Shown here piece by piece: positions 6,175 to 50,792 of a DNA stretch of 64,000 nucleotides. The translations under genes and the position numbers were made by a program. How positions within the stretch are numbered: position 1 is the stretch's first letter; each line of letters starts with the position of its first letter. Source of the DNA: Blasia pusilla. Taxonomy: Eukaryota. The stretch is from contig CM114271.1 in NCBI GenBank assembly GCA_050084515.1, positions 10,230,001 through 10,294,000 on the forward strand. The letters are read 5' to 3'. The notes beneath the pieces are model-generated. The model worked only from the letters and a program-made list of their open reading frames with translations, made no database searches and was not told where the DNA came from.

Positions 6175-6449
<275 letters not shown>

Positions 6450-7537: not shown

Positions 7538-7883
7538 ATTGTGACCAATCCGCGCCAAATAACTGCCAAAAAGATCTCTCCTCTAGTGCTTCACGAAGCT
7601 CGCTTGAGATACCTAGGGCCGGGAACACTCCACACTTCATAAGAGCCATGGCCGCATCTCGAGCCATCACTTCTTGCTTCCGTTTGAGTTTGCGCGATTT
7701 CTGAATTGCCCTCTTTGGTTGGCTTTTGGGGTCCCTCAACCTCTAGCCATGTGAAGTAAGCTATTTTGCCCCTCCCTCGGCCCTCTTGGCTCATGATAAC
7801 GGTGAGTCTTACCTAACGGCTACTTCTTTCGTAACATCATCTTAGCGCTCTTCATGATTTAGTGCAAAGACCTCGAAAATAAA
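7538..7883 (-). pseudogene. N-terminus of the element B extra ORF and its upstream spacer
   Basis: ISSELREALEERSFWQLFGADW aligns with LSPELVEELEEQSLANFFQENW (13482 ORF). Joins in frame to position 2917 (W-S-Q-C-S-G-D-L-L vs W-T-L-T-S-G-E-L-L). Confidence 0.7.
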
Positions 7884-8527
<644 letters not shown>

Positions 8528-8528
<1 letters not shown>

Positions 8529-8543
8529 CAAAGAGAGGATGAG
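8528..8543 (+). promoter_or_regulatory. Putative self-priming primer-binding site of copy 1
   Basis: ACAAAGAGAGGATGAG directly after A1 is complementary (15/16) to CTCATTCTCTCTTTGT at 8353-8368. Confidence 0.65.
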
Positions 8544-12130: not shown

Positions 12131-12139
12131 TCAGCCAGC

Positions 12140-16649: not shown

Positions 16650-17330
16650 AGGAGCACGAGTCTCGTTCTCCAACATACATTTTGGAGAATGTGCCAATTT
16701 TGGGCAATTTGAGGCCTTGTGTGGTGACGAGTGCACATCAGGTGCGTACATGGATCGTCCTGCCAATGTTGTTGGATGCGGTGAGTGTAGGTTCACAAGC
16801 ACATCATCGGTGTCTTTGGTGGACCAACTTGGTACCACAAGAGGTTTTGTTGAGGGCGTATGAGAGAGTGGAGCGCCCCTCCAATTTGTTGGTGGATTCT
16901 ATTGTGGATCTTGGTTGTTGATCATAGGCAGTAAGGCACGATGATCGACCGCCGTTGATTGTGGTCAAGAGGATTGGCATGCCACGAGTAGCCTTTCCCA
17001 CATTGGTGAGTTTTCCTCCTTCCTATGCATTCAAGGAGGCCGGGCCTGGCTTGGTTTGGGATGACTAGGTACAGTTGGTGGAGCCCAATGCCGATGAGCA
17101 AGAGCGAGAGCAAGGGATGGGATTCCCCACAGGAGTAACTATCGTCCCTCTTAGAGGCATCATGACTTCATGTCTTGGGTCAGGCGATGGACCTGAATTG
17201 CTTGAATTGGATTTAGCTTAGAAGAGGTTGAGCAACGTCGTTTGAGGATGCGACAGATCACAACTACTGTGTTGGTGAGCCCCATGCCTCTCGAGAGGAT
17301 TGAGACAGTGGCTGGGGGCGAGACCTGAGG
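16650..17330 (+). pseudogene. C-terminal half of DNMT3-like C5 cytosine methyltransferase (copy 1)
   Basis: YILENVP (motif VI), SQAHHRCLWWTNL (motif VIII region), VLGQAMDLNCL (motif X region). Collinear with 34050-34690 (-). Confidence 0.85.
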
Positions 17331-17354
17331 AGATTGACATACGTGTTTTGACAA

Positions 17355-20263
17355 TTGCAGTTACATGGGCTGAAGCTACATCTAGGCAAGTGCAAGTTCT
17401 TCTATGGCCAGATTGAATACCTGGATCATACAATATACCCAGGAGGCCTTGGTGTGCAACCGACCAAGGTAGAGGCTATTTCACGCATTCCACGCCCTAT
17501 AGATGTGAGTAGAGTTCGTGCATTCATGGGATTGGCAAACTTCTATCGACGGTACGTCAAGGGTTTCAATTTGATTGCAAAGTCGTTGACCTTGTTGACC
17601 AAGGTGGATCAGAAGTGGCACTGGGGGGATGAGCAAGAGAGAGCATTTCAGCTACTCAAGGACAGATTGACATCTGCATCCATATTGAGGAGACCGATCA
17701 AGGGGCGTCCTTTCCAGTTTCATACCGATTGGAGCATATTGGGGCTTGGAGCTGTGCTCACCCTGCATGACAATGATGGAAGAGAGTTCATGGTGGCTTA
17801 CGCTAGTCGCTCAAATAATGTTGCGAAGGCAAAGTATAGCTTGTATGAGGGTAAGTGCTTGGCTGCGGTGTGGGTTATCGCAAATTTTAGGTGTTATCTA
17901 TCTGCCAAACCCTTTACCATCATTACTGATCATCAACCACTTAAGTGGTTGAGGGATTCCGATAAGCTTATAGGGAAGCTTGCGAGGTGGGCTCTTTCGT
18001 TGCAGGAGTATGACTTCTAGGTGGTGCATGAACATGGAACGCTCAACCAGGATGCAAATGGTTTGAGCCGAAATCCATGCCTGAGTCATCAAGATGCAAC
18101 TAGAGCTTGTTGGCATGGAGAGAGTGATGAGGATTTGATGCCAAGATAGCAGGCCTGAGCCTATTTGGGCTTGTTGCTATGGAGAGCTTGATTGCTGAGA
18201 CTTTGATGGCGAGGTCTGATGGAGAGTCCTTAGATCCAAAGGCCGATCAGGAGATGATAGATGGTAGAGATATTCATGACAATGGAGTAGTCTTGGAGTA
18301 TCTGTGTGCACGCAATGTTGCAAGCACAGTGGGTGTTAGCGAGGGGGATCGGATCCTACAGTGAACCAGACGGTTCAGATGGGAGGGGACACATGTGTTG
18401 CGAGTTTGGGAGGATGGTAGAGTACCTGTAGTGCCTTATCCTTCATAGAGAGCAGGTTTAGTGTGTCATGCCCACAAGGAGTTGGATCATTCCGGAGCGA
18501 AGCAGACGTACAAGTTGGGCAGATAGAGTATTGGTGGCGAGGCATGCAGACTGACGTTTAGCACTTTGTTTCTAGGTGCATGGTTTGTGATCGGGTCCGG
18601 GCATCATTCAATGCTCCGACTCAACAATTGCATCCACTTCCAATCATGGGCTTAGGTTATAGATGGAGTTTGGATTTTGTAGGACCTTTACCTTTGACAA
18701 AGCGCCATAGTCGTTATGTGTTAGTGATGGTCGAGCACTTCTCGAAGTGGATAGAGTTGGTTGCATTGCCTGACAAAGCGAGTGAGGGAGTAGCGTATGC
18801 CTACGTAGATCGAGTGCTGAGTCATTACGGCACACGAGCTGAGGTGTTGACAAACCAGGATAGGTAGTTCTACGGGGAGTTTCAGGCCTTGTATGATCAA
18901 GCGTTCATCAAGCATCCCACCACGTCTCCGCTAGTCCATCCCGAGGCGGATGGACTAGCGGAGTGGGTTGTGCAGAGGGTGAAGAGAGGATTATGCAAGT
19001 ATGGCTTGCAGAGAGGTCACCTAGGAGATTGGGACCTCCTGTTTCTATGGTTGGCGATGGGATACAGATTCAGCACGTAGGCATTCTTAGCGTCTTTCTC
19101 ACCGTACTTGCTACTTTATGGCCGAGATCTAGATTTACTTACGGCCATTCGTTGAGATGTTGGTGAGGTATTGACCCTTGATGACCCTGATGTATGGATG
19201 CGAGCATGTTCTCAAAGGGCTGAGTTGTTTTGGAGAGTGATGCCCATGGCGTTTGAGAACTTGGCGATTGCGCAACATCGGGATATGTTGAGTTATGCGA
19301 CTATTAGAGGAGGTGGTTATCGACCTACTATCCAGAGGTTTCATCAAGGAGACTATGCCTACTTGTAGCAAGCTGCTCCCACGACGTTGGATGTGATTGC
19401 AGGGTGCACTATCTTGAGAATGCGTGAGATTTTGCCATCCGATGTTCTCTTATTAGAGGGACGCCATGGTATGGTTTGAAAGGACCATGTATGTAACTGT
19501 GGGCCACATCATCTTCCGAACATTGACGGTACAGTTGATCTGAGAAGAGTGGTAAGAGGAGAGGAAGAGAGGAGAGAGGAGAGAAGAAGAGAGGAGAAAG
19601 GAGAGAGGAAGGTATTGCCAACCCCTAGGGCTCTCTTGGTTTGAAGAGAGTTTTCGACAGGTTGGAGAGAGGAAAGTTTTGACAAGTTGAAAAAGCAATC
19701 TTTTTCCAAAAAAAATTGGTGGTGAAAAAAATTTGATTTTTTTTTTGTAAATTTTTTTTAACGTTTGCAACCCATCGAAGTCCAACGGGTTGCAAGTTGC
19801 AAACGTTAAAAAAAACCCAAAAAGATTATTTTTTTCCTTAACAATAAAATAAAATAATAATAAACAAAAAAATTGTAACCTGTCAAATTCCAAGGGGTTG
19901 CACTAAGTTTCCTTGCTTCAAAAAAATCTCCAAAAACATTACGCACTTATTATCCATAATCTTCATATTTTTTGAAGAGAGTTTCAGGTTTTAGGCCCTT
20001 TGTGCCTTTTTTTTTAAACTAGACTCTCCTCTCTTCCTCTCTTCCTCTCCTCTCTTCTTCTCTCTTGCCAAAATACTAGCCCCCATTGGTCCGAGCTTAG
20101 CCGTAGTTCCTGCATGCTTGCGATGTATGTTGTGTGGTTCTGGCCATGGTGCAGCCACGATGCTAGTCTGTGATGGATGTTCGAGAGGATGGCATGTGGC
20201 ATGTGTGACGCCACCTCTCAGTAAGGTTCCTCACGGACGATGGATGTGTCCCAGATGTACATA
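17355..20263 (+). pseudogene. pol: Partial RT, RNase H, integrase and PHD finger of copy 1
   Basis: GKCKFF..IEYL, VRAFMGLANFYRRYVKGF, TDWSILGLGAVL, TDHQPLKWL, WSLDFVGP, HPEADGLAE. C-terminal CMLCGS...LVCDGCSRGWHVACVTPPL...WMCPRC. Confidence 0.92.
19545..20085. mobile_element. Non-autonomous TIR insertion (Mutator-like MITE) in the integrase-PHD linker
   Basis: GA-rich left end is the inverted match of the CT-rich right end. Imperfect 10-bp flanking duplication TTGATCTGAG / TTGGTCCGAG. The host reading frame resumes after it. Confidence 0.6.
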
Positions 20264-20445
20264 GAGTAGGTAGTTCTAGATTCCGACTTGTGTTTGTGAT
20301 ATGGATGACAAGAAGGCGACTAACGATGGGGCCACATGAGCATCTGACCTTCTTGCTCTTAGAGTCCAATTGATGTATATCATGGTAGGTAGGGATAGAT
20401 GGCTATTTGTGAGTTAGAGGGACCTAACCACTAGCTAGGGGGATG

Positions 20446-21194
20446 ATTGGAGATATTTTGGTACTTCTTGTCTTGTTGTTTGGATGCCATAAGTTAGCAT
20501 GGGATCATGCGTGTTTATGTGTATGTTCGATGACAACCATGTATGTTGTGTAGCGATGTGTATGCGCACGATAGATGTCACGTCTTTTAGGATAGATCCG
20601 GGAGATATAGTAGAGCGCCTTTGGCAATACTAGAGGATAGCTTCGGGAGGTCGAGGATTACATGCTGAGGCCACGGATAGCCTAAGAGAACACGTTTCCC
20701 CTTTGTTTTGGCTCATTTGGAGCCATATAGAGAAACTTACAATTTCAGGTAAGTTTCCATTTGTATTATAGTTGACTTTCCACTTTGGAAAGTGGCCCTT
20801 AACCTACTATTGGAGGTCAAGAGCCAAGGAGGTGACCTCCGAGCATAGGTTACTGAGGAGAGAGCTTGGAAGAGGGAAGGGGGTATACCTCCAAGAGAAA
20901 GAGCTTGAGAGCTCATTCTCTCTTCGTTGAACCTCTTGGCATGAGGCGGCGGAGCTATGGTCTTGCTTGCCTTATGTGTGTAACCCAAGCCTCTCATAAG
21001 GAGAGTGGGTTTGGTTTGACATTAGAGAGAGTGCACACCAAGGAGAGCTTGGTGTGAGATATTGAGAGAGATTTGACCTTATTTTTATTGGAGATATTTT
21101 GGTACTTCTTATCTCATTGTTTGGATGCCATGAGTTAGCATGGGATGGTGCGTGTTTATGTGTATGTTGTGTAGCGATGTGTATGCGCACGACA
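20446..21194 (+). repeat. B1-A2-B2 3' terminal repeat block of copy 1
   Basis: 20446-20573 duplicates 21087-21194. The intervening 20576-21087 duplicates 7884-8528. Confidence 0.9.
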
Positions 21195-21359
21195 CGAAGA
21201 CAATGAAGACAAAGATGGCAAAGACACCCTTTCCTTGTCTACCTTGAGTCTTTGTAGGTCTTTGGGGGTCTTTGCGTCATAGACCTCAGAGTCTTTAAGA
21301 TGGCTCCTTGACACGCCTTGCACAAAGAGGATTGGTTGTACTTATTCCCCCTCCTTTAG

Positions 21360-27304: not shown

Positions 27305-28856
27305 TGTTATATACAACTCAAGGAAAAAGGTACTCTTTTAATCGAAAAGTATTAAGTTTGTTCCCACTAGATCACTATTTCCTGAGTAAAGAGAGGTTTT
27401 ATAAGAAAAATCAAAAATAACTCCTTCTTCACTAAGTACTTAACTAACTTCAATAACTAAGTGTTCACTAGTACAAAAGATCAAATGGTTTTCTTTCCTC
27501 TTGGAAAAGACTCTTCTCAAGTGCAGATAAAGACTCTTGCGAATCTTTGATAACAAACTTCCAACAAAGACCTCAAAGAGACCTCAAGAAGATAGGGGCT
27601 CACCCTACTGTCAGAACTCAATGTGTCATGGCAGGTTACTTACTGTCTAACAACTTTCCTATGCTCTTCTTGATTATCTTCTGGAATCTTGAAACCAAAG
27701 ACTCAACTCTCATCCATACCGCAACCCAATAAGATTTGCATTCAACTCCACACATCACAAAGCATGAAAGAAGACACTTCTATTGTATCAAAGAGTGGAA
27801 AGAACTAGAAAGTATTACAAGCTTTTGAGGATACAAGACTCTTCTGCTTGGATCATCCCCTAAAGACCTCCTCACACAATCCACCAAAAGAACTAGGAAC
27901 TCAAGATACAAGGGAATGACCCCTTGTTCTTCTGCTTTATTCTTTAAATAATTTCTTACAATTCCTAGCTCTTCCTATTCTACTCTAGAGTTCTAACTAT
28001 CAATCCGCCGGTTCAGATCCTCCAACCCTTCACTTCCTTTAGGTTGGTTGGTTGCTCTGTCGATTCCTTTCCACTTCCTTCAGAACTGTTGCGCCTATTC
28101 ATTTCTAGCTTTCAAAACTGCCGCGATGGTTCATTCTTCATAGTCTTCGCGGTCTTCGCTGTCTTATCTTCGCGATTCTATCTTCGCAAAGACTCTTATC
28201 CTAATGCCCTTGCGAAGAGTCCTCCTCGCGACTTCCTTTCAATTCGCTTGCTTCAACATATTATTTCTCTTTCTATTCCTTTTCTTCATACAAATTTTTG
28301 CTTTGTGACGACTCTTTTCTTTCCTCTTCTTCTTTCTCTTCCTTCTTGGATTTCTTAATCTTCGCTCTTTGGTCTTCGGTCTTTGTTCTTTGTTCACAGT
28401 CTTTGCACAAAGACTCCTTTGGATCTTTTGCTGCAAAGAAGAAGTCTTTTACAGTCTTCACGACTATTCATACTGCGGCCTTCCCTGAGAAGTACCCTAA
28501 ACATCAATTATTTTTCTCTCCTGACCAGAGAAAAATAATTGACGTGGAGATATGAACATACCGCTCTTGAGTAGCCAGATCGATTTGAACCTTTGGTGGA
28601 GCCAATGACGGTGATGAAAGGACAAGAGATAGGAAGAGATTAAGGACTATCTTGGAGGAGTGAGTCTTGTGTAAAAGCACGAAAAGAGTGGGAAAGAAGA
28701 AAGAGTTTTGTCATTCCATGTTTCTACACGATTAGTGTAAAGAATACATCTTTGCTTCCAGTATTGAGTCTTGAGTCTTCACTCAATGAAGACTTCACTA
28801 CAATTCTACACCAAAATGGACTTCTTAATCAAAATTTCAAAAAGGTGGGCACTACA
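27305..28856 (-). repeat. 5' LTR of element B
   Basis: Reverse complement of 4739-6169, with a local rearrangement at ~28495-28706. Confidence 0.9.
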
Positions 28857-29240: not shown

Positions 29241-29849
29241 TTGTAGAGCTGCCATAGCGAACGTACGAAGAGCAAATTTTGAAATTCTTGGTAACTTCTT
29301 AGTTGAGATAGAAAAGTTTAAAAATATTTCATTATTTTGGAAAGAAAAAGTAAAACTTAGGATCTTGAGGTTAAAGTGAGTGGAAATTTTATTTAGTGGA
29401 TGTTGACTCAATATTTATGGGGCTTAGTGGAGTATAAGCCAAATGTGAATAATTTTAGCAGTTGATCCTTAGTTTAAGGAGTTAGTGGAGTGGGAAAAAA
29501 CAAAATACATTCAATTTTTGAGTAAGGTTAAAATAGATCTATCTTTATCCACATGAATGATATCGTAATTACTATTGAATTTCATCGTCCATTCAAGCCG
29601 TTCTTACTCCGTATGTTGGCCACCGTCGACGACGTTCTTCACCGTTGTTGATTGGACAGTGACCTTTTGGATTAATGGGGTCGGAGTTTTCTTTCCGCTC
29701 TACTATGCATAGTGTTTTGTAGCCGCCTGACAATCATCAGCTACTCAGATGGTTGATGGAGTCTGAAAAGCTTACACGGAAGCTTTCTAGATGGTCACTC
29801 TTATTGTAGGAGTACGATTTTCAGGTTGTCCATCGCCTAGGACATCTGA

Positions 29850-30004
29850 ACTAGGATAAGGATGGGTTGAGCCGTAGCCCATGTACGAGCTTGAGCGATG
29901 CAGCTAGAGTGAGGTGGCATGGTGAGAGTGATGAGGATTGGTGTCGGGTTGGCACGCATCTGCCTATTTGTGTTTGTTGGCTATGTCTGGTCAGCAGGAG
30001 GCAT
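29850..30004 (+). pseudogene. DNMT-Gypsy copy 3, left part (RNase H end and linker); host of copy 2
   Basis: DGLSRSPC...RWHGESDED..GWHASAYLCLL matches GLSRNLC...RWHGEVDEE..SWHASAFLCWL (31880-32428). Confidence 0.85.
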
Positions 30005-30585
30005 TGTCGTGCCAATCCACATCATCATACAACATACATTGCTGACATACCATACTCACATACATACATAACATAGACGAGAGCATCCACAAACACAAGT
30101 GTACCACAACTGAAATCCGTGAAAGACCTATTGTCATAAAACATGTATATAATCACATACAATCGAGCCAAACCCACTCCACGATGGGAGAATCTAGGTC
30201 GAAGCTTGTAGGAAACACCATAGCCAAGAGCTCTACTCACTACCAAGGCTAACTCCCAACGCAACAGGCTCAACTCAAAGAACTAACTGTTCTTTGAGTG
30301 CACTCCACCTTATATCTTCCAACCTACGAGCGGGCCCTACTGGAAAAGTCACCCTCAACTGAGTAACCCCCAACCCTATGTATGAAATTGCATCTCTACC
30401 TAGACACTGCGGCCCTACATAAGGTATGGCCTCTACTAGCACACTATACTCTACGACATAATCCGTATGGTCATTACGGTGTCGATGAATCCACATCATC
30501 ATACAACATACATCGCTGACATACCATACTCACATACATACATGACATAGACGAGAGCATCCACAAACACAAGTGTACCACAACT
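30005..30585 (-). repeat. B1-A2-B2 3' terminal repeat block of copy 2
   Basis: 30014-30111 is nearly identical to 30488-30585. 30111-30475 is nearly identical to 39313-39676. Confidence 0.95.
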
Positions 30586-30758
30586 CGCCCCCCTAACTGG
30601 CGGTTAGGTCCCTCTAACTCCCCAGGTAGCCCTATACATCTACTACATGCTATACACCTTCTTGGGTGCACGAATCAGAAGGCCGGGTGCCAGGTTGCCC
30701 CATCGTTAGTCGCACATCTGTAATCCATATCATGCAAATATCAAGTCATCTACCTCTC

Positions 30759-32000
30759 CTAAGTACATCGAGGACAAACCCACCTTCCAGTAGGAACAAC
30801 ATCCATACGTGGAGTCAAACACATCATGTGCCAACACCTAGAACACCGATCACACACCAACATACGGGCTGAGTTACCAGCAGACCCACACAACATGCAC
30901 CTCAAGCTAGCTCGTATCATGGCTAAGCTTGGGTCAACAGTACCATCCACATTTGGAAGATGACATGGCGCACAATTACGCACATGGTCCTTCCAAACAA
31001 CTCCATCACGACCCTCCAACATGAGAACTCCATAAGCTAACACCTCGCGCATTCGTAAAATAGTGCGGCCTGCCGTCACATCCAACGTTGTCAGTGCAAT
31101 CTGCTGCAAATAGACGTAGTCCCCCACATGGAACCTACGAATCGATGGTCGATAACCTCCACCCTGAATGGTTGCATACCGCAATGTATCCCTATGTTGA
31201 GCAATGGCAAGATTCTCAAAGGCTGTTGGCATAACTCTCATCCATATCTCTCGGTCATCAAGGTTCACCACCTCACTAGACTCCCAACGAATTGCTACTG
31301 GCAAGTCTAGATCTCGGCTATATAACAGAAAATAAGGTGAGAAGGAAGCCAAGGATGCTTGGCGACTGAACCCATACCCCATGGCTTACCATGGCAACTG
31401 AATATCCCAGTCTCCAAGATGCCCCTTATGCAGGCCATACTTGCGCAATGCCCTCTTCACCGTCTGAACCACACGCTCAGCCAAACCATCCGCCTTTGGA
31501 TGATCTCAAGACGTGGTCTAATGATCAATCAACTCCTTGTCACACAAGACGTGAAACTCACCCTGAAAATCTGTACCCTTGTCGGTCAGCACTTCAGCTG
31601 GTGCACCAAAATGACTAAGCACTCTATCAAGAAACGCATACGCCGTTCCCTCACTTGCCTTATCAGGTAATGCCACCAACTCATTCCACTTGGAGAAGTG
31701 CTCCACCATCACCAAACATATCAATGATGTCGTACAGTCAACGGTAACGGTCTCGCAAAGTCCACACTCCAAAGGTAACCCAAACCCATAATAGGCAAGG
31801 GGTGTAATTGTGGTGTAGGGGCATTGAATGATACCCTCACCCGATCACAAACCATACAACATGACACCAACTGCTGCACCTAAGTATGCATGCCACGCCA
31901 CCAATACTGACCAAGGAGTAAGCTATACGTACGCTTTACCCCAAAATGTCCCAACTCCTCATGGGCATGTCGCACAATGCGCTCTCTCTGAGCCAAATGC
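30759..32000 (-). pseudogene. pol: DDE integrase with C-terminal PHD finger (copy 2)
   Basis: HAHEELGHFGVKRT...YWW (HHCC), VEHFSKW, VLTDKG. C-terminus CMLC-x9-CDRC-x4-HMMC-x14-CPRC (Cys4-His-Cys3). Confidence 0.93.
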
Positions 32001-33816
32001 GGCACTACTCGTACTCTACCATCCTCCCACACACGGAGAATATGTGTTCCCTCCAATCGATACCTCTTAGCACGTTGAAGAACACGATCTCGCTCCTTGG
32101 CACTCACTATGCCTGGCACCCTACTGGTCCATAGGAACTCCAACACCAACGCATCATCATGAATATCACGCTGATCCGTACCGCCACCTCCAACCTTAGG
32201 ATCTGAAGGCTGGCCATCTACCCTCTGACTAGAGTAAGATATCATGTGGTCCTCCATACTAGAGTCCACCCCTAACCAACATAAAAAGGCGGATGCATGC
32301 CAACTTGGCACCATCTCCTCATCAACCTCGCCATGCCATCTAGCCCCAGTTGTATCCTCTTGGCTAGTACATAGGTTCCTACTCAACCCATGAGCATCAA
32401 GGTTGGTTACTCTAGGTCTATGTACCACCTGGAAGTCATACTCATGTAAGATAAGAGCCTACCGTGCAAGCTTCCCTGTAAGCTTGTCAGACTCCATTAA
32501 CCACTTGAGCAGCTGGTGATCAGGAACAAGGGTAAACTGTGTGCCAAACAAGTAGCACCTAAAGTGTGCCATAGCCCACACTACTGCCAAGCACTCTCCC
32601 TCATATGAACTATAGCGTGACTCTGCTGCATTATTCGAATGACTTGCATAGGCCACCACAAACTCCATGTGCTCATCATCATGTTGTGTCAACACCGCTC
32701 CAAGTCCCAACCTACTCCAATCAGTATGTAACTGAAATGGGCGCCCTCTGATAGGTCTCCTCAAGATAGGCGCCGCCACCAACTAGGCCTTAAGCTCCAT
32801 AAAAGCTCTCTCCTGATCATCTCCCCAGTGCCACTCTTGATCTGATTTCAGCAATTGGTTTAAAGGCTTTGCCATAGCACTAAATCCCTTCACATACATC
32901 CGATAGTAGTTCGCCAATCCCATGAATGCTCGAACTCTACTCACATCTACCGGACACGGAATAAGTGTAATAGCCTCCACCTTTGCTTGCTGAACTCCCA
33001 AACCACCTGGATAGATCACATGACCCAAGTACTCAACATCCTCATGGAAGAACTTACACTTTCCTGGATGCAAACGTAGACCATGAGCTTTCAACCGCTC
33101 AAACACCATCTGCAAATGTATCTGATGCGCCTCCACCGTGTTACAGAATACCAAAATATCATCAATGTAACACCAAACAAAATCCAACCCTGCTAGGATC
33201 CTGTCCATCACTCTCTGAAACTCGGCAAGTGCATTCTTCAACCCAAAGGGTAAGAATTTCCACTGGTACAAACAATCCTTGCTATGAGAGTTGACACCCC
33301 AAAATGTTGTTTTGGCCTTGTCACTCTCATGAATCGGCAATTGATGGTATCTCGCCGAAGATCCAAAATCTGAAAATCTTTGCCTGTCCCACCACATCAA
33401 AGATCTCCTCGGTGTAGGCATGGCATACCTATCGCCTTGGTTTGCCGATTGATAGGACGGTAATCTCCACACATCCGCCTATCCGTGTAGTTGCCATGCA
33501 TATCCTTTTTAGCGTGATGACATGTGGTCGATGCATACTCTCCATGTGACAACTCCACTAATCCAGCCTCCAAAAGGTCCAACGTCCTACTCTGAATCAG
33601 GTCCCTCTCCATATCACTATATCGGTAGGGACGACGGAAGATTGGCGTATCACTAGCCAAATCAATCCGTATACCGGGTCCAACCAGAGCACCCAACTCC
33701 TTCATGCTGAAGGCAAAACAACTCCTATAAGCATGTAGGAACTGTGTCAAGCATCGTTTCTCACCTCCCGTAAGCTTGGGCCCAAGTAATGGCTCCCAAG
33801 TCTCCTCCACTAGCAC
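32000..33816 (-). pseudogene. pol: Reverse transcriptase and RNase H (copy 2)
   Basis: RRMCGDYRPIN, LPFGLKNA, YIDDILV, GKCKF, LHTDWSRLGLGAVL, YSSYEGECLAV, DHQLLKWL. Confidence 0.95.
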
Positions 33817-34049
33817 ACTAGAGGAGAGGGCGATGCCATTGGTCTTTCATAACCCCTCACAAGATGGTACACCCTTAGCTACACCATCATCTGAGCAAAT
33901 AACTCCTCCACCAGCATGAGCAACCAAATCCACATGCCCAGCCATCACATCCCATTTATTCCAAGGATACAAAATCCTACTCTCCTCGCCCCCAGCCGAT
34001 GCCTCTACCGTCCCGGTAGCCATCAAGCTCATTACAAGGGGTGGAAGAC

Positions 34050-35040
34050 CCACAGACATAGTCCGAAGTCGACGCTGCTCGGCCATACCAAGACTCAAAA
34101 TCCAAGTCAAACAATTCAGATCCATGGCCTGACCCAACACATGACGTCGTGAAGCCTCATAAATGGAAGCAACCGCTATCACACCACTAGCAAATCCCAT
34201 CCCATGCTCACTCTCATCAGCGTTAGGCTCCACCAACTGTCGCACATGAGAATCCCATACAAGCCCGGGACCACCTTCCCTGTAGGCATGTGACGAGGGA
34301 AAACTCACCAATGTGGGTAGTGCCATCCTAGGCTAGCCCACACGGTTCACCACTGCCATGAGTGACCGATCAATAACCCTCACCACTTGAGAAAGTCGCC
34401 CAGTATCCAAGATACTATCCACTGTAAGGCAAGGATCCCGCTGCACTACATCATATGCTCGACGTAGAACCTCCCTAGGCAACAAGTTTGTCTACCACAA
34501 GCATGGATGATGTGCACGCGAGCCAACTCGCGCTGCATCCAACAACACCATTGGTCCAATCCAAGACCGCACCTCATGAACACTTGCCATCATTTGGGTC
34601 CGAGTGTCACCCAACAATGGAACATTCTCCAGAATGTAAGCTAGAGCATGTGCCTCATGAACCTGAAGATGTCGTAACATCGTAACATCTCCCAAAACAA
34701 TCGAGACCTAGGGTCGTGTAATCCCTCACCACGACCAGCACGTGTATGACCCTGACATGGCCATCCAGCAATCACCAGATCCACATGATCAACCCTCTCA
34801 AGGTCCTCCGCCCCCAACAATGCGATGTGTGACGGCAAAGCACGCTGGTACCCACAAATAGTTGATGGCGGCAACAACTCATGATGTCTCCGCATCAACT
34901 GACCAATCTGTCGGGATGAGACTCTCTGGGCCGTCTCATCTCGCTCCACATACCCGTATCTCCGCACAGAAATACCGGCCTGCAACAATGCAGCCAAACC
35001 AATGCTTATCCCACCAAAGAGATCTAACACACAAATGCCC
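34050..35040 (-). pseudogene. DNMT3-like C5 cytosine DNA methyltransferase domain within the retroelement polyprotein (frameshifted)
   Basis: Motif I ICVLDLFGGI (~35008-35036), motif II YVE, motif IV DLVIAGWPCQG (PCQ 34752-34760), motif VI YILENV (34621-34629), motif VIII region AHHPCLW*TNL, motif X region RRHVLGQAMD. Confidence 0.92.
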
Positions 35041-35456
35041 TCCGGCGGATACTGCCATACAATGGGTGTAGTATCCAAAGGGGATAACCCAACTTGATCA
35101 GAAGTAGGAGTCCGCCGTGGGGCCTCCTCTTCCTCGTGAGGTATAATAGCCTCACACCAAGCCTCCTGCCGTAGTGCACCGCCTAAACTCCAAAGTGGCA
35201 CATCCAACGATGAGGATGCCACTGCTGCAAAAATAGGGACCTCTTCTACCTCCTCATGCACAGGAGAATCCATAGCAGAAACATTACCCTCCAAAAAGTC
35301 TCCTGGCCAAGGGACTACTCCACTAAAACCAGCCACAGATACTAACACTATTGGGGAAGACCCTCCCGGTCGAGCCCCATAAATAAATCTCACAGGAACT
35401 TGGCTCATACGTCCATCCCCGGACTGCCAACCAGGTCTATAAGACGCTGTCTCAGT

Positions 35457-35882
35457 CTAGTAATCCATCTGAAAACCCATCGGGTACAATATTGCTCCTC
35501 CAACTAGTACATCATACGACTCAGCTGATGTGACTACAGCAGATATTCCCAACCGGGAGCTATCAGTCGCATGATCTGGTCTCATCTGTACAGAAAACTT
35601 CTCCCGTGTCATGAATTGAGACCTATCATTGGCTCCTCCAAGTGATGTTTGAATCTGGAATGGGCAAGGCTCAAGCTCTGACCTCTGAATATCCAAACCA
35701 ATACATGCCGCTTTTCCCAACATCAAAGGTTGGGCACCAGAGTCTAACAATACTCTATCTGGTCTATACACCTGTCTTGTAGGACTCACCAATCGGAATA
35801 TCCCACTCCGGTTGTCCAACATACATAGACCAGGTGTAAGCCTCTCACGATCAATGGCTGGTCGGGCTGGTAATGCATCCAT
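35457..35882 (-). pseudogene. Retropepsin-like aspartic protease (copy 2)
   Basis: VLLDSGA catalytic motif and YDVLVG. Confidence 0.9.
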
Positions 35883-37889
35883 CTTCGCCGCTGCTGCCTG
35901 TCAAGTAGCACTAGTACTCAATGCTACACCTGACATAGAGGGTCGCTCCACCGCAATACCCTCATCCACCTCAGCACGTGTAGCAGTAACACCCCCACGT
36001 TCACACAACGTGGCGGCTAGGTGAAATACAGGAGCTAAGTCAACTCCTAAAGCCATCAGCTCCATGGCCGAAAACAATGGGGATCCGAACACTGAAGTTG
36101 CCATCCGCTATACTGCATTGGATGCTGCATCCGTGTCTACTACACGCGATGTAGATGCCTCAATCTCCACTTTCGGCTCAATAGGCTGCATAGGAACCAT
36201 GGATGGAGTCCTAAGCACCTCAGACAACAAGAATGACTGGGGAAGCCTAGCCTGCCTTTGAGCCTCACCCCTCTGTGGGTCCAACTCCACAGTAGCACCA
36301 CGTGGTTTTGACGTTCAAGTGGCTCCTCTCGTAACTGCAGCCGATGCCTCAACCTGTGCTGCACTTGCCATATAAGAGAGATCATCCCCTCCATAAGAGA
36401 TGGAAGCCCTTGCTCCCGAATCTGATCTATGCTGGATACCAGCCATAGTAGCCAACTTCTCCTCCAACTGCTCAATCCTGGCAGCCATGGCTGACTCTGT
36501 TGTAGTGGTAGGGGTAGCCACCGTAGGCTCCAACCACTGGTCCACCTCTACCACCCCTACCACCTCCACCACCTCGGCCTCTCGGAGCTACTCCACCACG
36601 GCCGCGGCCTGATCTCAACTCTGGATGAAGATCAAAGCAACGCTCTCAAGGATGATCTGGTCTCCCGCAATGATCACATTGAGTTGGGTCCGACTGAGGC
36701 CCATCCTCTAAAGTCCGTCTCCCATCCTCTTGGGGACAAAACTTCCTAACATGATCACCTCCACATGTCCAACATGACTGTCCTTGCTGCGGGGCAGCAA
36801 ATGAAGGCAATGGTCTCTACGCAAGTGTCCCTGTAGGACTGGCGACCGAGGTCGTGTGTACCCCCACGACTCCCACTACTACTACCACCACCACTACTAC
36901 GAGAGGCGTGAGGTGGGTGCTGAACACGAAGTAGTAGTTGTATCCCTACTAAATGCGGATGTCACCACTCTCTCCTTCACCATGTTAAGCTCAATCTTCT
37001 CAGATAGAGCAAACACATGGGTCAATGTGGGTGAATCATCACTCATAAGTGTAGCATCACATACCCTGCGGCGCAACTCCCTGTCCAAGATCCCATACCA
37101 AAACTCGACTGCTTGAGCCTCAGTCACACCCTGGGTGACTGAAATCAAACGTCGCATACGAGTGTATGCCTCACGAAGACTCTCACCAGTCTTTCGCTCA
37201 AATTCTTGAAGGCTCCTCAACTTCTCTGTCTTCACTCCCTGATAGTTCTTCTTCAACCTCTTGAAGAACTTTGCAACGGGGATAAACGATGGTGGGGCAC
37301 TAGTACCTCCACTAGTACCCCCACTGGTACCTCCAGTGGTACCCCCACTCCGGCTCGTACTCGTACCACTCAACGTCGGGCTGGCTAGCATAGTAGGAGC
37401 ACTACTACCAATACCACCATGGGTGATAGACACATAGCCTGGAGACCAATATTGTCTCCACGCCTCAATCTCAACAACATGGTCCTTCCTAAACTCATGG
37501 TAATCATCCATGGGTGGTCCCTCAAGTCTTTGAAACAACCCCTTCCAAGCCAAGAAGGGTGTAAACAACGTGGCGTTCCGCAACATTTGCATATCACACC
37601 ACGTATCAAACTCCTGCATGAAGTCCTCCAACTCAATGGTGCCCACTGCACCCAAGTATCTTCGTGGGCCCTTCATGGCCCCATATATCCCGTCCATGTC
37701 CCAAATCAATGGAGCTGCAACACTCGTTAACAACGTAGAAGACTCGGTGTTTGGAACACCCTCGTCCTCCTCTTCATCAACCGTCGAAAGTGGAAAAGGT
37801 AGCCGATACCTAAATCCACTCCGTGTGAAACCACCACTATCCGCACCACGGTCCCCAACCAGACCACCCGACAGCTCCGCGATGACCAA
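35883..37889 (-). pseudogene. gag: gag with two CCHC zinc knuckles and linker (copy 2)
   Basis: GESLREAYTRMRRL (MHR-like). CWTCGGDHVRKFC (~36735-36774) and CDHCGRPDHP*ERC (~36637-36678). Confidence 0.85.
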
Positions 37890-39301
37890 CGCCGATGCCG
37901 CACCACCACCAAATTATCACCACTAAGTAACCAAGTGACGTCGATGTCGCTATACTATTCTAGCTCTACTAGCTATGGATGTAGGCAACCTAACCTGTCA
38001 TCACCACAAGAAGCCTCCCAGAGTCTACTGGTCATCACTCCAACCTCACTACCGGTAGCACACAGGAGTAACACTACTCTCGAAATCAGCATCAACCCTA
38101 ACAATGGGCGCCCAAGCAAAAAGCAATGATGGAGGGGATCCAAACAAAGGAAGTCCAACGACAATCCTCCAATCGCAAATGGAAATCAAGGTAACACAAT
38201 CCACCAAACGTGGCGCCCCCTGAATCCACAAAACCCACCACACAATCCTAATGCAATAGCTACTCCACCGCGGGTCGGTGACGTGCTAGTCGAACTCGCA
38301 GCACCTGAAAATATCACCTGCATGGAGAGGCTACACCGTACTATGCGCTAGAGGTCCATCAACCAAAAACCTGAGATGCATAAAGCGCCTAACACCTCTC
38401 CGAACAGCACCAAATGAGCTACAACAGTGTGTACACTGGCATAGTTAAGAACTCAGCAGTTAAGCGTCTTCCAGGCAGAATAGCCCAAAGATGGGTGACC
38501 AGTTATACAACACTCAATCCACAAATCCTGCAAAAATTGCCTCACGCCCAAGCAAGCAAGCTTGCTTGCTTGCTCCTTGCTCCTTACTCCGCCTCTCACG
38601 CCCACTCGCCCTGAGCTACCACGAGTTGCCTCAAAGCCTCCAATGGGATAGGAGTCTCCAACAATGAATGAGTCACCAACCAACCAGCCCCTCCGATCCG
38701 CTGTCCACCATAGACCTTGAGCTAGTCCGCGAAATTTCGATCAGCAATTACTCCAAAAATCCTCAACCAAAATTGAATATGTTTCAATCGGAATTCAATT
38801 GACCACCATAGCTATCTCTCCACAAAAAATCAGCTACAATCAAGCTCTGTACTCCGAGCTAAAAATCAGACAAACTTGCTGTCCATACACCTCCAGAATC
38901 GCAAATCCGACAGCGCTTCCGCCAAGTTTCATGCACGCAGAAACCTGCAACGCTCCACACACTCAAGCAGATAGCTTCACATGAGATCACAATACAAGTA
39001 GCAATAGGAATCTCTCACCCTATCTGGATGAACTTTAACAGAGCTTCCGCACTCCAAGCTCTCCACATCAGAAAACCGTCGAACACGAACCAGAATCTTC
39101 AATCCTTGATAACTTCCAACTCCCTTGACGAAATCCGGCGATCTAAAGCATGTTGGAAAGCTCTTAGCAAGGCGCTTCTTTCCCAACCAACCACACACTA
39201 GATTCACACCTCCAACATAGGCCACAATCCACGGCTGAGTACATAATCAGCCCTAACCAGATCCTATTGATCTACAATCGAAGCTACCATTGATCTACTT
39301 C

Positions 39302-39313
39302 AGTTCTTTGAGT
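39302..39313 (-). promoter_or_regulatory. Putative self-priming primer-binding site of copy 2
   Basis: Minus-strand ACTCAAAGAACT at the end of A1 is the exact complement of AGTTCTTTGAGT (39486-39475) inside A1. Confidence 0.65.
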
Positions 39314-39676
39314 GAAATCCGTGAAAGACCTACTGTCATAAAACATGTATAGAATCATATACAATCGAGCCAAACCCACTCCACGATGGGAGAATCTAGG
39401 TCGAAGCTTGCGGGAAACACCATAGCCAAGAGCTCTACTCACTACCAAGGCTAACTCCCAATGCAACAGGCTCAACTCAAAGAACTAACTGTTCTTTGAG
39501 TGCACTCCACCTAATATCCTCCAACCTAAGAGCGGGACCTACTGGAAAAGTCACCCTCAATTGAGTAACCCCCAACCCTATGTATGAAATCGCATCTCTA
39601 CCTAGACACTGCGGCCCTACATAAGGTATGGCCTCTACTAGCACACTATACTCTACGACATAATCCGTATGCTCAT
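39313..39676 (-). repeat. Terminal repeat A1 of copy 2
   Basis: Near-identical to 30111-30475. Confidence 0.95.
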
Positions 39677-40694
39677 GAAAACATCCACTCTATGAGGGAC
39701 GTTGGATGGTGAGTCCTCAGATCCAGATGCTAGTGAGGATTCATCAGGGACTGGAGACATCCACGATGATAAGATGGTCTTGGAGTTCCTGCGTATTGGT
39801 GTCTTAGCAAGCACGGTGGGTGCTAAAGAGCAAGATCGAGTCCTATAGCAAGCCAGGAGGTTTAGGTGGGAGGGTGGATTGAGTTGGTGGAGTTGGTAGC
39901 AGTTCTCCAAGTGGATTGAGTTGTGTTGTGATCACGTACTGATAGATCATCGTATGACTTCTTGAGATCATCGGGAGGCAAATGGTTTGGCAGAGAGAGT
40001 TGTGTAAACAGTGAAGAGAGGATTTCACAAGTATAGACTTCATAGAGGACACTTGGGAGATTGGGACCTACAATTTCCGTGGTTGGCGATGGATTACCGC
40101 TCTGTCGGCAGGCATCCTTGGCATCATTTTCATTGTATTTCTTGCTCTATGGGAGAGAGCCAAAGTTACCATCGTCGATTTGACAAGATGTGGTTGAGGT
40201 ACTTGACCTTCATGATCCAAACATATGGGTACAAGAGTGTTCTCAACGGGCTGAGTTCTTTCAGAGAGTCATGCCAATGGTGTTTGAGGTACGGGACTAC
40301 GCGTGGAGGAGGCTATCGTCGAGGGATTCGGAAATTTCATCCTCAAAATTATGTCTACCTATAGCAAACAGCGCCGACAATATTGGACGTGATGGCAAGA
40401 CGTATTATTGTGCGAGTACGAGAGACTTTACCTTCAAGAGTCCTTGTTCTAGAGGGTCATGATGGTATCATTTGGAAAGATTATGTGCGTAATTGTGCGC
40501 CATGTCATCTTCCAAACGTGGATGGGAGGATTGATCCAAGCTTGGAAGTTGTTCTTGAAGGCCTGAGATGCATGTTGTGTGGGTCTGCCAGAGGTGCAAC
40601 CACCATGCTAGTTTATGATGGGTGTTCTCGAGGATGGCATATGTCATCTTTCACGCCGCCTCTTGACTTGGTTTCTCAGGGACATTGGCTTTAG
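39677..40694 (+). pseudogene. DNMT-Gypsy copy 3, right part (internally deleted integrase and PHD)
   Basis: DIHDDKMVLEFL, GHLGDWDLQFPW, VRNCAPCHLPNVDG..CMLCGS..DGCSRGWH. Confidence 0.88.
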
Positions 40695-40698
40695 GGTT

Positions 40699-41562
<864 letters not shown>

Positions 41563-44199: not shown

Positions 44200-44494
44200 T
44201 GTCATCCTCTAACCTTGAAGGTACAGGGGAGGTGTAGGGTGAAGCACTTTCGTCCCTCTTCTTGCTCTTCTGCTTCGCACGAGGACAAGGACTAGGAGCT
44301 ACTCTTGGCGGTTTTCACGACATGTGGTCCTCTTGCTGCTTGTTCCTACGCTCAACAGGCTGATTCCGAGCTGATGGTCGGTCTTTGTCTATGGGTATCC
44401 CACGGGTTACAGTTCTTGGTTGCTCACCCAAGATTGTTACAAAGTGCAACTCCATGGATGGACAATTAGCTCTTCTCAATTTCTATGGTGGTGC
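44200..44494 (-). pseudogene. Athila-like leader / gag N-terminal fragment
   Basis: Similar to 48220-48420 (NKQQEDH..W.PP.V.PS..PR). Confidence 0.55.
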
Positions 44495-45615: not shown

Positions 45616-45629
45616 TTCTCCCAATCCAC

Positions 45630-50328: not shown

Positions 50329-50792
50329 AGAGTGCACACCATGGAGACCTTGGTGTGAGATCAAACCCACTCTCTAAATGAGAGGCTTGGATGTTACATA
50401 CAAGACAAGGATGGCGATAGCTCCGTCACCTCATGCCAAGAGGTTCAACAAAGAGAGAATGAGCTCTCAAACTCACTCTCTTGGAGGTATATCCCCTTCC
50501 CTCTCCCAAGCCCTCTCCACGATGACTTATGCTCGCGCATCACCTCCTTTGCTCTTGACCTGCTGTAGCATATCAAGGGCCACTTCCCAAAGTGGAAAGT
50601 CAACTATAACCAAAATTGGCAACTTGCCCAAAATAGCAATTTCCTCAATATGGCTCCAAATGAGCTGAAAAGAAGGGGAAACCTGCTCTCTCAAGTAACC
50701 TGTGGCCTCCTCTTCCACCTCCTGAGGCTCTCCTCTAGTCTCTCCGAAGGCGCTCTACTAGATCTCGTCGATCTATCTTAAGAGACGTAACA
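50329..50792 (-). repeat. Isolated A repeat of the DNMT-Gypsy copy-1 subfamily, last ~32 bp inverted
   Basis: 50361-50792 reverse complement aligns with 20576-21020. 50329-50360 matches 21027-21059 in plus orientation. Confidence 0.85.

What the first reader, a model, noticed from the sequence alone, without database searches (positions are those of the whole stretch)
30005..30594. Split direct repeats (A1-ORFs-B1-A2-B2) on a DDE-integrase element
Seen in copy 2: A1 39313-39676, then after pol a purine tract, B1 30480-30585, A2 30111-30475 and B2 30005-30111. The A2/B2 join is precise, B2 ends CACGACA, and there is no clean 4-6 bp TSD (only CAT at both junctions). Established: this layout is the hallmark of tyrosine-recombinase retroelements (PAT/Ngaro/TOC1), not Ty3/Gypsy, yet this element has an rve integrase and I see no tyrosine recombinase ORF. 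Inference: the reverse-transcription unit is B+A (purine tract before B, priming site after A), but integration occurs at the internal B|A boundary, as if a 2-LTR circle is the substrate. Standard LTR finders would mis-delimit such elements.
Basis: partly seen in the sequence, partly recalled or inferred. Interest (0 to 1): 0.9.

Follow-up and report, generated by a model that had tools for sequence, protein, structure and literature searches.

The report
Permuted-repeat Gypsy retrotransposon with DNA methyltransferase
This is a Gypsy-type jumping gene from a liverwort-like genome whose end repeats are arranged like those of an unrelated class of elements, probably because its DNA copy is joined end to end and then reopened at an internal site before it inserts.

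Summary
The A1-ORFs-B1-A2-B2 layout is real. It occurs in two diverged copies in the window and in related metagenome loci. The element is Ty3/Gypsy-type: gag, protease, C5 DNA methyltransferase, RT, RNase H, DDE integrase, PHD finger. No tyrosine recombinase was found.

The layout has one line in print: de Mendoza 2018 (PMC5890265, Fig. 4c legend) says KnitGypsy-Dnmt3 of Klebsormidium has DIRS-like repeats on a Gypsy body. My searches found no account of termini or mechanism.

New here:
- Ends are canonical 5'-TGTC...GACA-3' with 4-bp target-site duplications (perfect in 5 of 8 two-ended copies).
- The internal B|A junction is a palindrome, GACA-RY-TGTC.
- A polypurine tract sits just before B1. 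A self-priming primer site sits just after A1, supported by compensatory changes. So the reverse-transcription LTR is B+A.
- No copy has ordinary B+A LTRs at both ends.
- About half the copies are A-ORFs-B with a single B.

Best reading: the cDNA ends are joined at A|B and the integrase opens the molecule at the palindrome. The join was not observed, and the absence of A-B-A-ORFs-B copies is unexplained. Verdict: new member of a known kind, moderately interesting.

The parts
30001..30004 (-). Copy 2: 3' target-site duplication ATGC
   Evidence: Lies directly after CACGACA. The 4-bp length is set by relatives.
30005..30110 (-). Copy 2: B2, ends ...GGCACGACA-3' (element 3' terminus)
   Evidence: Depth step at 30007/30008.
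30111..30474 (-). Copy 2: A2. Contains a TATA-like ATATAAGG (30315-30308) and AGTTCTTTGAGT (30284-30273), which is complementary to the primer site.
30475..30479 (-). Copy 2: decayed internal B|A junction (CCGTA). The family consensus is GACA-GT-TGTC.
   Evidence: Consensus of 52 RNA loose-end reads at 30474.
30480..30584 (-). Copy 2: B1
30585..30596 (-). Copy 2: polypurine tract TTAGGGGGG plus CGA, directly before B1
   Evidence: Related families diverge exactly at 30585 (loose ends). Conserved in L004-L078.
30759..37913 (-). Copy 2 coding region, broken by stops and frameshifts: gag 36897-37913, protease-like 35457-35900, C5 DNA methyltransferase 34641-35456, RT 32783-33478, RNase H 32459-32782, integrase H2C2 31880-32458, rve 31518-31844, PHD finger at the C-terminal end of ORF 30759-31385
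   Evidence: The protease label rests on position only; Pfam gave no hit for that ORF.
39302..39313 (-). Copy 2: self-priming primer binding site ACTCAAAGAACT, overlapping the last base of A1
   Evidence: Exact 12-nt complement of A positions 195-206. Compensatory changes in L039.
39313..39676 (-). Copy 2: A1. The 5' TGTC is missing and the junction with the host falls within 39673-39677.
7880..7883 (+). Copy 1: 5' flank TAAA, facing CGAA at the 3' side
   Evidence: The 2 of 4 match fits CpG decay on both strands (inference).
7884..8528 (+). Copy 1: A1, starts TGTCAC. Contains an expanded (GA)n and CTCTCTTTGT (8359-8368).
8528..8537 (+). Copy 1: primer site ACAAAGAGAG, complementary to 8359-8368
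16982..20261 (+). Copy 1: remains of the Pol coding region through RT, RNase H, integrase and PHD
   Evidence: tblastn. 69% nucleotide identity to copy 2.
20436..20443 (+). Copy 1: polypurine tract TAGGGGGA
20446..20573 (+). Copy 1: B1, ends CACGATA
20574..20575 (+). Copy 1: 2-nt junction spacer GA
20576..21087 (+). Copy 1: A2, starts TGTCAC
21088..21194 (+). Copy 1: B2, ends CACGACA
21195..21198 (+). Copy 1: 3' flank CGAA
29726..30000 (+). Older related element X (RNase H and integrase N-terminal part) into which copy 2 inserted: left half
   Evidence: tblastn; alignment.
39677..40700 (+). Element X: right half (integrase to PHD)
50354..50792 (-). Third, truncated A-type fragment (79% to copy 1 A2). 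Starts TGTTACG with no B upstream.

Best explanation
This is a Ty3/Gypsy-type LTR retrotransposon of the streptophyte 'Gypsy-DNMT3' kind. Its order is gag, protease, C5 DNA methyltransferase, RT, RNase H, DDE integrase, PHD finger. Its integrated copies are permuted relative to the product of reverse transcription.

Shown by sequence:
1. The LTR defined by reverse transcription is B + junction + A. B1 starts 2-3 nt after a polypurine tract. A1 ends at a primer site that pairs with a segment inside A, about 30 nt downstream of a TATA-like box. That is a self-priming arrangement like the one described for Tf1.
2. The ends used for integration are different. Copies start 5'-TGTC (start of A) and end GACA-3' (end of B), a 7-bp imperfect inverted repeat, and they carry 4-bp target-site duplications. 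That is the signature of a DDE integrase.
3. Inside the element the same two ends sit abutted as the palindrome GACA-RY-TGTC between B1 and A2.

Inferred: after ordinary reverse transcription gives B.A-ORFs-B.A, the two cDNA ends are joined, creating the A2|B2 junction. The join may be a ligated 2-LTR circle or an RT-made equivalent. The integrase then cuts after CA on both strands of one internal palindrome and inserts the opened molecule. The result is A-ORFs-B.A.B. This is the smallest integrated form that still carries a full U3-R downstream for the next RNA.

Copies of the form A-ORFs-B may arise when ends from the two different palindromes are used. They may also arise by later B1xB2 (or A x A) deletion. 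My data cannot separate these routes.
For: Architecture; methyltransferase closest to DRM/DNMT3 chains.

Layout: found in two window copies about 70% alike. Complete in L004, L024 and L078, and in L039/L040 with B2 cut. B1-A2-B2 alone in L011 and L019, and in the deeper families L031, L042, L049, L050 and L067.

Termini: 9 of 11 distinct 5' ends read TGTC; L004 reads TATC and copy 2 lacks it. All 17 3'-end rows end in ACA.

TSDs (8 two-ended copies): perfect 4/4 in 5 (TCTC, AAGG, AATC, TACA, TGTT), 3/4 in L034, partial in both window copies.

Internal junction: CA + 2 nt (R-Y) + TG in 12 loci, or a one-transition variant of it at the CA or TG in some (L039, L049, L078, L050, L042), plus window copy 1 (CACGATA-GA-TGTC), plus the RNA-read consensus and a contig of a second organism.

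No ordinary form: 0 of 11 5' ends have B before A1, and 0 copies end in A.

Primer site: an exact complement of 8 to 16 nt at the aligned site in A in 7 of 11 A1 copies. L039 carries two compensatory changes (ATTCGAAG/CTTCGAAT). Copy 1 has a wholly different pair (ACAAAGAGAG/CTCTCTTTGT).

A2|B2 junction: heterogeneous in the way circle junctions are. L004 carries +17 nt plus the tract-proximal CGA, and L011 carries an extra GA.

RNA: stranded reads cover the ORFs, B1, the junction and the 5' part of A2 at depth 90-270 but B2 at only 8-11. The main RNA therefore lacks B2, which must be re-made from B1.

Precedent for integrase cutting a palindromic LTR-LTR junction: PMC1905944 and PMC1180852 (titles and starts of abstracts seen only).
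Against: No circle or joined cDNA was observed; the join is inferred from integrated copies only.

A 2-LTR circle has two identical palindromes. Cutting the other one should give A.B.A-ORFs-B, yet 0 of 11 5' ends show it. Either the cut is asymmetric or such copies collapse quickly. Neither was tested.

Three B2 copies from different subfamilies (L011, L019, L024) share a G>A at B position 24 that their own B1 lacks. That is unexpected if B2 is recopied from B1 in every cycle.

RNA ends were not mapped. 32 molecules end at 30318, upstream of the predicted start site. If that were the poly(A) site, the RNA would have no terminal redundancy.

Copy 1's A2|B2 junction (TTTTTA|TTGGAG) is not of CA/TG form.

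A1 was not found in the deeper families, so the full layout is documented only for three related families.
Confidence: 0.68

Rival explanations
1. The whole A1...B2 structure is inherited as such. A full-length RNA runs from A1 to the end of B2 and is copied without LTR regeneration, so A.B (TGTC...GACA) is the true LTR, the 5' copy has lost B, and B1 is a separately maintained segment.
For: A2+B2 looks like a canonical TG...CA LTR with inverted ends. Three B2 copies share a substitution absent from their own B1. Some RNA reads do cross A2|B2 (depth 26 in bin 30096-30139).
Against: The polypurine tract sits before B1, not before A2, and the primer site sits after A1 with no B between them. RNA depth over B2 is about 10 times lower than over B1. 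The A2|B2 join varies between copies by tract-proximal bases. Nothing after A1 resembles B in any of 11 copies.
Confidence: 0.12
2. Linear cDNA is the only substrate. The integrase cuts internally at the left palindrome (bottom strand) and the right palindrome (top strand), giving A-ORFs-B. The B.A.B copies are secondary products such as unequal exchange or gene conversion.
For: Single-B copies with perfect TSDs are common: 8 distinct loci against 9 with B.A.B. Examples are L010 (TACA) and L029 (TGTT). They are no more diverged from the family consensus than B.A.B copies of the same subfamily.
Against: An A-ORFs-B copy carries no downstream U3-R, so it cannot template the next round. The B.A.B form has the same junction in independent families. 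B.A.B copies have their own perfect TSDs, so they were inserted in that form.
Confidence: 0.1
3. Integration is done by a tyrosine recombinase supplied in trans, as in DIRS/PAT/Ngaro elements, and the rve integrase is not the integrating enzyme.
For: The A1-B1-A2-B2 layout is the one described for tyrosine-recombinase elements (listing; PMC5890265 Fig. 1 legend passage).
Against: 4-bp TSDs and TG...CA inverted ends are DDE-integrase signatures. No recombinase ORF appears in the element or in the intact polyprotein. RT and RNase H domains and their best hits are Gypsy-type.
Confidence: 0.03
4. The two window copies are chance tandem or recombination products of ordinary LTR elements.
For: None found.
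Against: The same layout is seen in three families with complete copies and in five deeper families at the 3' end. Not one ordinary B.A-ORFs-B.A copy appears among the loci examined.
Confidence: 0.02

Closest known systems
KnitGypsy-Dnmt3 of Klebsormidium nitens (de Mendoza et al. 2018, PMC5890265; section 9 and Fig. 4 legend read, supplements not seen)
   Same: It is a Gypsy-type element with a Dnmt3-like methyltransferase inside Pol. The paper states that its repeat structure is that of a DIRS element while its domains are those of Gypsy. A 2026 preprint (10.64898/2026.05.21.726589, passages read) calls the group 'streptophytes (Gypsy-DNMT3)'.
   Different: The host here is liverwort-like: best RT matches are Marchantia polymorpha at 76-79% and Calypogeia fissa at 72%. 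The parts of the paper I read give no termini, TSD, junction, primer site or mechanism, and do not mention a PHD finger ('PHD' occurs 0 times in the main text). Sequence relatedness to the Klebsormidium elements could not be tested.
DIRS / PAT / Ngaro tyrosine-recombinase retroelements
   Same: They have split direct repeats A1-ORFs-B1-A2-B2, in which the internal B1.A2 carries the joined form of the two element ends.
   Different: Here there is a DDE integrase instead of a tyrosine recombinase, 4-bp TSDs, TG...CA ends, and Gypsy-type RT and RNase H.
Retroviral 2-LTR circles cut by integrase at the palindromic LTR-LTR junction (foamy virus and HIV-1; PMC1180852 and PMC1905944, listing and starts of abstracts only)
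   Same: A DDE integrase acts on two abutted ends in a palindrome.
   Different: In retroviruses the palindrome is the joined pair of cDNA ends and the circle is a side product. Here the palindrome lies inside the reverse-transcription LTR, and the joined cDNA ends (A|B) are a different, non-palindromic site that stays in the integrated copy.
Tf1/sushi (Tcn1) self-priming Ty3/Gypsy elements (Neumann et al. 2019, PMC6317226, passages read)
   Same: The primer site is complementary to the element's own 5' RNA rather than to a tRNA. Neumann et al. report TSDs of 4 or 5 bp across plant LTR-retrotransposon lineages.
   Different: Those elements have ordinary paired LTRs and a chromodomain. This one has split repeats, a PHD finger and a methyltransferase. 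Phylogenetic placement was not tested.
Troyka (Kojima 2025, PMC12440569; abstract and passages read)
   Same: It is an atypical Gypsy-like lineage with unusual ends.
   Different: Troyka has CG...CG ends, 3-bp TSDs and ordinary paired LTRs at both ends, and is reported from animal phyla only. This element has TG...CA ends and 4-bp TSDs.

Membership tests
Ty3/Gypsy (Metaviridae) LTR retrotransposon | Domain order gag-PR-RT-RNase H-integrase, with a DDE (rve) integrase | tested here: met
   for the window (rve 32.1 bits, just under the 32.6 cut-off, in a decayed copy; gag weak at E 0.0022, 18.6 bits, below the 24.1 cut-off). for intact P0019 (rve 46.8 bits, H2C2, RVT_1, RT_RNaseH).
Ty3/Gypsy (Metaviridae) LTR retrotransposon | 5'-TG...CA-3' termini and 4-6 bp target-site duplication | tested here: met
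   TGTC at 9 of 11 5' ends and ACA at all 17 3'-end rows. Perfect 4-bp TSD in 5 of 8 two-ended copies.
Ty3/Gypsy (Metaviridae) LTR retrotransposon | Two complete, identical LTRs at the two ends | tested here: not met
   The 5' end carries A only and the 3' end carries B-A-B. 0 of 11 5' ends have B.
DIRS/PAT/Ngaro tyrosine-recombinase retroelements | Encodes a tyrosine recombinase (Phage_integrase) | tested here: not met
   No hit in 20 ORFs of copy 2 or in P0019 and P0001.
DIRS/PAT/Ngaro tyrosine-recombinase retroelements | Split direct repeats A1-B1-A2-B2 | tested here: met
DIRS/PAT/Ngaro tyrosine-recombinase retroelements | Insertion without a target-site duplication (feature recalled, not taken from a call) | tested here: not met
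   4-bp TSDs.
Gypsy-DNMT3 (KnitGypsy-Dnmt3) | Dnmt3-like C5 methyltransferase inside Pol of a Gypsy element | tested here: met
   PF00145 in ORF 34641-35456 between protease and RT. Best solved relatives are DRM (E 4.7e-4) and DNMT3A (E 0.016), both weak. P0019 and P0001 also carry it.
Gypsy-DNMT3 (KnitGypsy-Dnmt3) | DIRS-like repeat arrangement | tested here: met
   The paper's statement was read.
Gypsy-DNMT3 (KnitGypsy-Dnmt3) | Common descent with the Klebsormidium elements | not testable with these tools
   No Klebsormidium sequence was returned, no eukaryote genome is held, and the paper's supplements are closed.
Troyka | CG...CG termini and 3-bp TSD | tested here: not met
   TG...CA and 4 bp, against the definition read.
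Tf1/sushi self-priming group | Primer site complementary to the 5' end of the element's own RNA | tested here: inconclusive
   The complementarity and compensatory changes are clear. The RNA 5' end was not mapped, and clade membership was not tested.

The most novel reading that the evidence does not exclude
A whole lineage of DDE-integrase retrotransposons in bryophytes and streptophyte algae must pass through an end-joined (circular) cDNA. Its integrase sites have moved to a palindrome inside the LTR, so the integrase works on a circle junction much as IS-element transposases do. The DIRS-type split-repeat layout would then be a convergent consequence of circular intermediates, not a mark of tyrosine recombinases.
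Probability: 0.4. Interest if true: 0.8.

Novelty: new member of a known kind. Interest (0 to 1): 0.58.

Why it matters
Split direct repeats are used as a classification mark for tyrosine-recombinase elements. Here they sit on an element that integrates like any Gypsy, with TG...CA ends and a 4-bp TSD, so the mark is not reliable.

LTR finders that look for two equal terminal repeats will mis-delimit this family. The family is very abundant in its host: 44,782 contigs of one run were laid on 1.3 kb.

The anatomy gives a concrete hypothesis that can be tested at the bench. The hypothesis is that a retrotransposon integrase uses an internal palindromic junction of an end-joined cDNA.

The element also carries a methyltransferase and a PHD reader. 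It is therefore of interest for how transposons deal with host chromatin.

Tried and rejected
- The own genome is not held, so no genome-wide census was possible. I used 80 metagenome loci and one read lay instead.
- The look-up of sequencing runs listed no holder on record as RNA ('no RNA holder listed'). A raw RNA run with the same species label was laid instead.
- A 3-bp TSD (ATG in copy 2, CGA in copy 1) was my first reading. I dropped it once relatives showed 4-bp TSDs.
- Reading copy 2's TTTC as a mutated TGTC with TSD ATGT/ATGC was rejected. Element X keeps the same 12-codon spacing as copy 2's own integrase only if GTTTTC is host sequence (reading by eye).
- I compared B1-B2 identity within elements against identity between elements to test regeneration. 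It was uninformative: the family looks like a burst, with own-pair identity of 89-96% and best foreign match of 91-98%.
- I compared the age of single-B and B.A.B copies by divergence from consensus. There was no difference within the main subfamily (about 3.7% against 3.9%), so this was uninformative.
- A1 could not be found in L049, L042, L050, L067, L031, L019 or L011.
- A search for named Klebsormidium relatives with the methyltransferase region found 6 proteins, none named.
- Troyka was rejected.
- Papers on Marchantia, DNMT, Gypsy and PHD and the 2026 preprint say nothing on the repeat structure.

Full report
**1. Observation**

On the minus strand the element reads A1 (39676-39313), about 8.7 kb of internal sequence, a purine tract, B1 (30584-30480), a short junction, A2 (30474-30111), then B2 (30110-30005).
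- A1 and A2 are 96.4% identical over 364 nt. B1 and B2 are 98% identical over 98 nt.
- A2 and B2 abut exactly, and B2 ends CACGACA.
- The internal region carries, in order: gag (weak hit, E 0.0022, below the Pfam cut-off), a protease-sized ORF with no Pfam hit, a C5 DNA methyltransferase, RT, RNase H, integrase zinc-binding and rve core domains, and a C-terminal PHD finger. All are broken by stops and frameshifts.
- No tyrosine recombinase was found in 20 ORFs of both strands or in an intact 1516-aa relative.

A second copy, about 70% identical in pol, lies on the + strand (7884-21194). It has the same layout and a nested unrelated LTR element at about 10007-16649.

**2. What is already in print**

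De Mendoza et al. 2018 (PMC5890265; section 9 and the Fig. 4 legend read) describe KnitGypsy-Dnmt3 of Klebsormidium nitens. [quoted passage not shown]
- That one sentence is all the parts I read say about the repeats. Supplements are closed.
- The name occurs in no other paper of the library.
- A 2026 preprint mentions "streptophytes (Gypsy-DNMT3)" without discussing the repeats.
- A search for split direct repeats together with integrase and retrotransposon found 14 papers. Judging by the titles and abstract starts of the 12 listed, none describes a Gypsy element with such repeats.

**3. Host and relatives**

No genome is held for this window.
- The best RT matches are Marchantia polymorpha (76-79%; P0001 and P0011 also carry PF00145) and Calypogeia fissa (72%). 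Many unnamed proteins carry rve plus PHD, and some also carry the methyltransferase. The window therefore looks like a liverwort or a close relative.
- The methyltransferase's best solved relatives are DRM and DNMT3A, at weak E-values.
- An alignment of 11 such polyproteins retrieved 80 metagenome loci.

**4. Copy 2 sits inside an older relative**

tblastn and alignment show integrase sequence of a related + strand element (X) on both sides of copy 2: 29795-29995 and 39702-39875. This gives an approximate empty site.

**5. Termini and TSDs**

I used A and B of L024 as probes on all loci and the window and read the junctions.

*5' ends.* There are 11 distinct copies: L004, L007, L010, L024 (=L028), L029, L034 (=L046), L038, L039 (=L040), L078, and window copies 1 and 2.
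- All are flank|A followed directly by the primer site.
- None has B upstream, and none is A.B.A.
- Nine start TGTC. L004 starts TATC. Copy 2 lacks these four bases.

*3' ends.* All 17 rows end in ACA.

*TSDs.* Eight copies have both ends readable.

| Copy | TSD | Match |
|---|---|---|
| L004 | TCTC | perfect |
| L024 | AAGG | perfect |
| L078 | AATC | perfect |
| L010 | TACA | perfect |
| L029 | TGTT | perfect |
| L034 | GGTT/TGTT | 3 of 4 |
| Window copy 1 | TAAA/CGAA | 2 of 4 |
| Window copy 2 | ATG.../ATGC | partial |

- Copy 1's mismatch is the pattern expected from CpG decay on both strands in an old copy. That is an inference.
- For copy 2, element X keeps the same 12-codon spacing as copy 2's own integrase only if GTTTTC belongs to the host.
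- The expected copy 2 junction, TTTTC-ATGC-TGTC-ATGAGC, contains two TCATG repeats 8 nt apart. Loss of those 8 nt gives exactly what is seen. It is an inference.

The read lay agrees with these ends.
- Depth jumps at 30007/30008.
- Three contigs of X5 show non-B flank followed by TGTC and ATGACC.

**6. The internal junction**

Between B1 and A2 the two ends are abutted as CA + 2 nt + TG.

| Source | Spacer |
|---|---|
| L004, L078, L067 | AT |
| L011, L039, L050 | AC |
| L019, L024, L038 | GC |
| L031, L042, L049 | GT |
| Window copy 1 | GA |
| RNA reads, consensus of 52 | GT |
| RNA reads, 9 further | AT |
| Contig of a second organism (X7) | GC |

Sources.
- In some loci the CA or the TG itself carries one transition (for example L039 GATA, L049 CATA, L078 and L050 TATC, L042 TATT).
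- The spacer is purine-pyrimidine in every case except window copy 1 (GA), so the site reads as the palindrome GACA-RY-TGTC.
- All variants are transitions of CAGCTG, which fits decay at methylated sites (inference).
- Copy 2's own junction is decayed.

**7. The reverse-transcription unit**

- B1 starts 2-3 nt after (T)AGGGGGG in every copy. Reads of the copy-1 family diverge from copy 2 exactly at 30585.
- The sequence that begins at the last base of A1 (ACTCAAAGAACT in copy 2) is the exact complement of a segment inside A (AGTTCTTTGAGT). That segment lies about 30 nt downstream of a TATAAA-like box.
- The pairing is supported by compensatory changes. L039 has ATTCGAAG paired with CTTCGAAT. 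Copy 1 has ACAAAGAGAG paired with CTCTCTTTGT.
- An exact complement of 8 to 16 nt at the aligned site in A was found in 7 of 11 A1 copies. L007's only 8-nt match lies elsewhere in A, and L007, L004 and L010 carry deletions at the site.
- This is the self-priming arrangement described for Tf1/sushi-type elements, predicted in plants for the Tcn1 clade (PMC6317226, passages).

**8. RNA**

- Stranded reads of one raw RNA run cover the ORFs, B1, the junction and the start of A2 at depth 90-270. Depth falls across A2 and is 8-11 over B2.
- The orientation is opposite over element X, which lies on the other strand. Both are therefore read as sense transcripts, if the library is of the usual kind.
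- The main RNA lacks B2, so B2 has to be re-made from B1.
- 32 molecules end at 30318. I cannot interpret this.

**9. Mechanism**

Ordinary reverse transcription would give B.A-ORFs-B.A. What is integrated is A-ORFs-B.A.B, with integrase-type ends at the palindrome. This requires that the left B be removed and a B be added after the right A. In other words, the two cDNA ends must be joined and the molecule opened at one palindrome.
- The A2|B2 join varies as circle junctions do. L004 has 17 extra nt plus the tract-proximal CGA, and L011 has an extra GA.
- Integrase cutting of palindromic LTR-LTR junctions has been reported for foamy virus and HIV-1 (PMC1180852, PMC1905944; listing only).
- I put 0.68 on this general account. 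Whether the joined form is a ligated 2-LTR circle or an RT-made equivalent is open.

**10. What does not fit**

- A circle has two palindromes, and cutting the other one predicts A.B.A-ORFs-B. None was found (0 of 11).
- Eight distinct loci are A-ORFs-B with a single B (L006, L010, L012, L020, L029=L033, L034, L035=L017, L044), against nine with B.A.B.
- These single-B copies could come from use of ends at two different palindromes, from collapse of A.B.A, or from B1xB2 deletion. Divergence from consensus does not separate these routes.
- Three B2 copies share a G>A absent from their own B1.
- The full layout, including A1, is documented only for three related families.

**11. Verdict**

The claim of no TSD is wrong for the family. 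The claim that the layout is foreign to Gypsy elements has been overtaken by a 2018 report. This is a liverwort-type member of the Gypsy-DNMT3 kind.

The termini, the TSDs, the palindromic junction, the self-priming site and the two integrated forms are, as far as my searches show, not described in print.

Noticed in passing
window 34641-35456 (-) and 30759-30900 (-): The element carries a DNMT3/DRM-like C5 DNA methyltransferase between protease and RT, and a PHD finger at the integrase C-terminus where chromoviruses carry a chromodomain. Many relatives have rve plus PHD, and some also have the methyltransferase.
   Followed up: partly
window 10007-16649 (+); related pieces 44494-46114 and 48889-49313 (-): A different LTR retrotransposon, with LTRs at about 10007-11227 and 15373-16649 (80% alike), is nested in copy 1. 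Fragments of the same family lie elsewhere in the window.
   Followed up: no
window 8200-8346, 40697-40797, 52785-52810, 6305-6446: Long (GA)n/(CT)n runs. In copy 1 the run lies inside A just upstream of the segment that pairs with the primer site, where copy 2 has the other arm of a hairpin. The microsatellite may have grown out of that purine arm.
   Followed up: no
window 40775-41562 (+) and 52016-52803 (-): A 788-nt inverted duplicate at 97% identity, each copy starting right after a (GA)n run. It cuts off the 3' end of element X. Its nature is unknown.
   Followed up: no
window 4739-6169 (+) and 27305-28856 (-): Inverted repeats 86-92% alike over about 1.4 kb, probably two copies of another transposon.
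   Followed up: no
L011 3053-3166, L019 9319-9434, L024 10692-10805: Three B2 copies from different subfamilies share G>A at B position 24 (GTGTAT to GTATAT), which their own B1 copies lack. The first base of B2 is A in 4 of 9 copies but always G in B1; there the B2 context is a CAG site.
   Followed up: partly
window 30318 (-): 32 RNA molecules of run X22 end at this base (depth beside 111). It lies upstream of the predicted transcription start inside A. It could be a poly(A) site, a processing site or a subfamily boundary.
   Followed up: no
window 30075/30211 (table 5c): One low-depth contig of run X1 joins B2 to A through 19 letters that contain the plant telomere-type repeat CCCTAAA.
   Followed up: no
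L026 3321-3602: A deletion derivative in which pol runs straight into A position 177 and then B. It ends GACA like the others.
   Followed up: no
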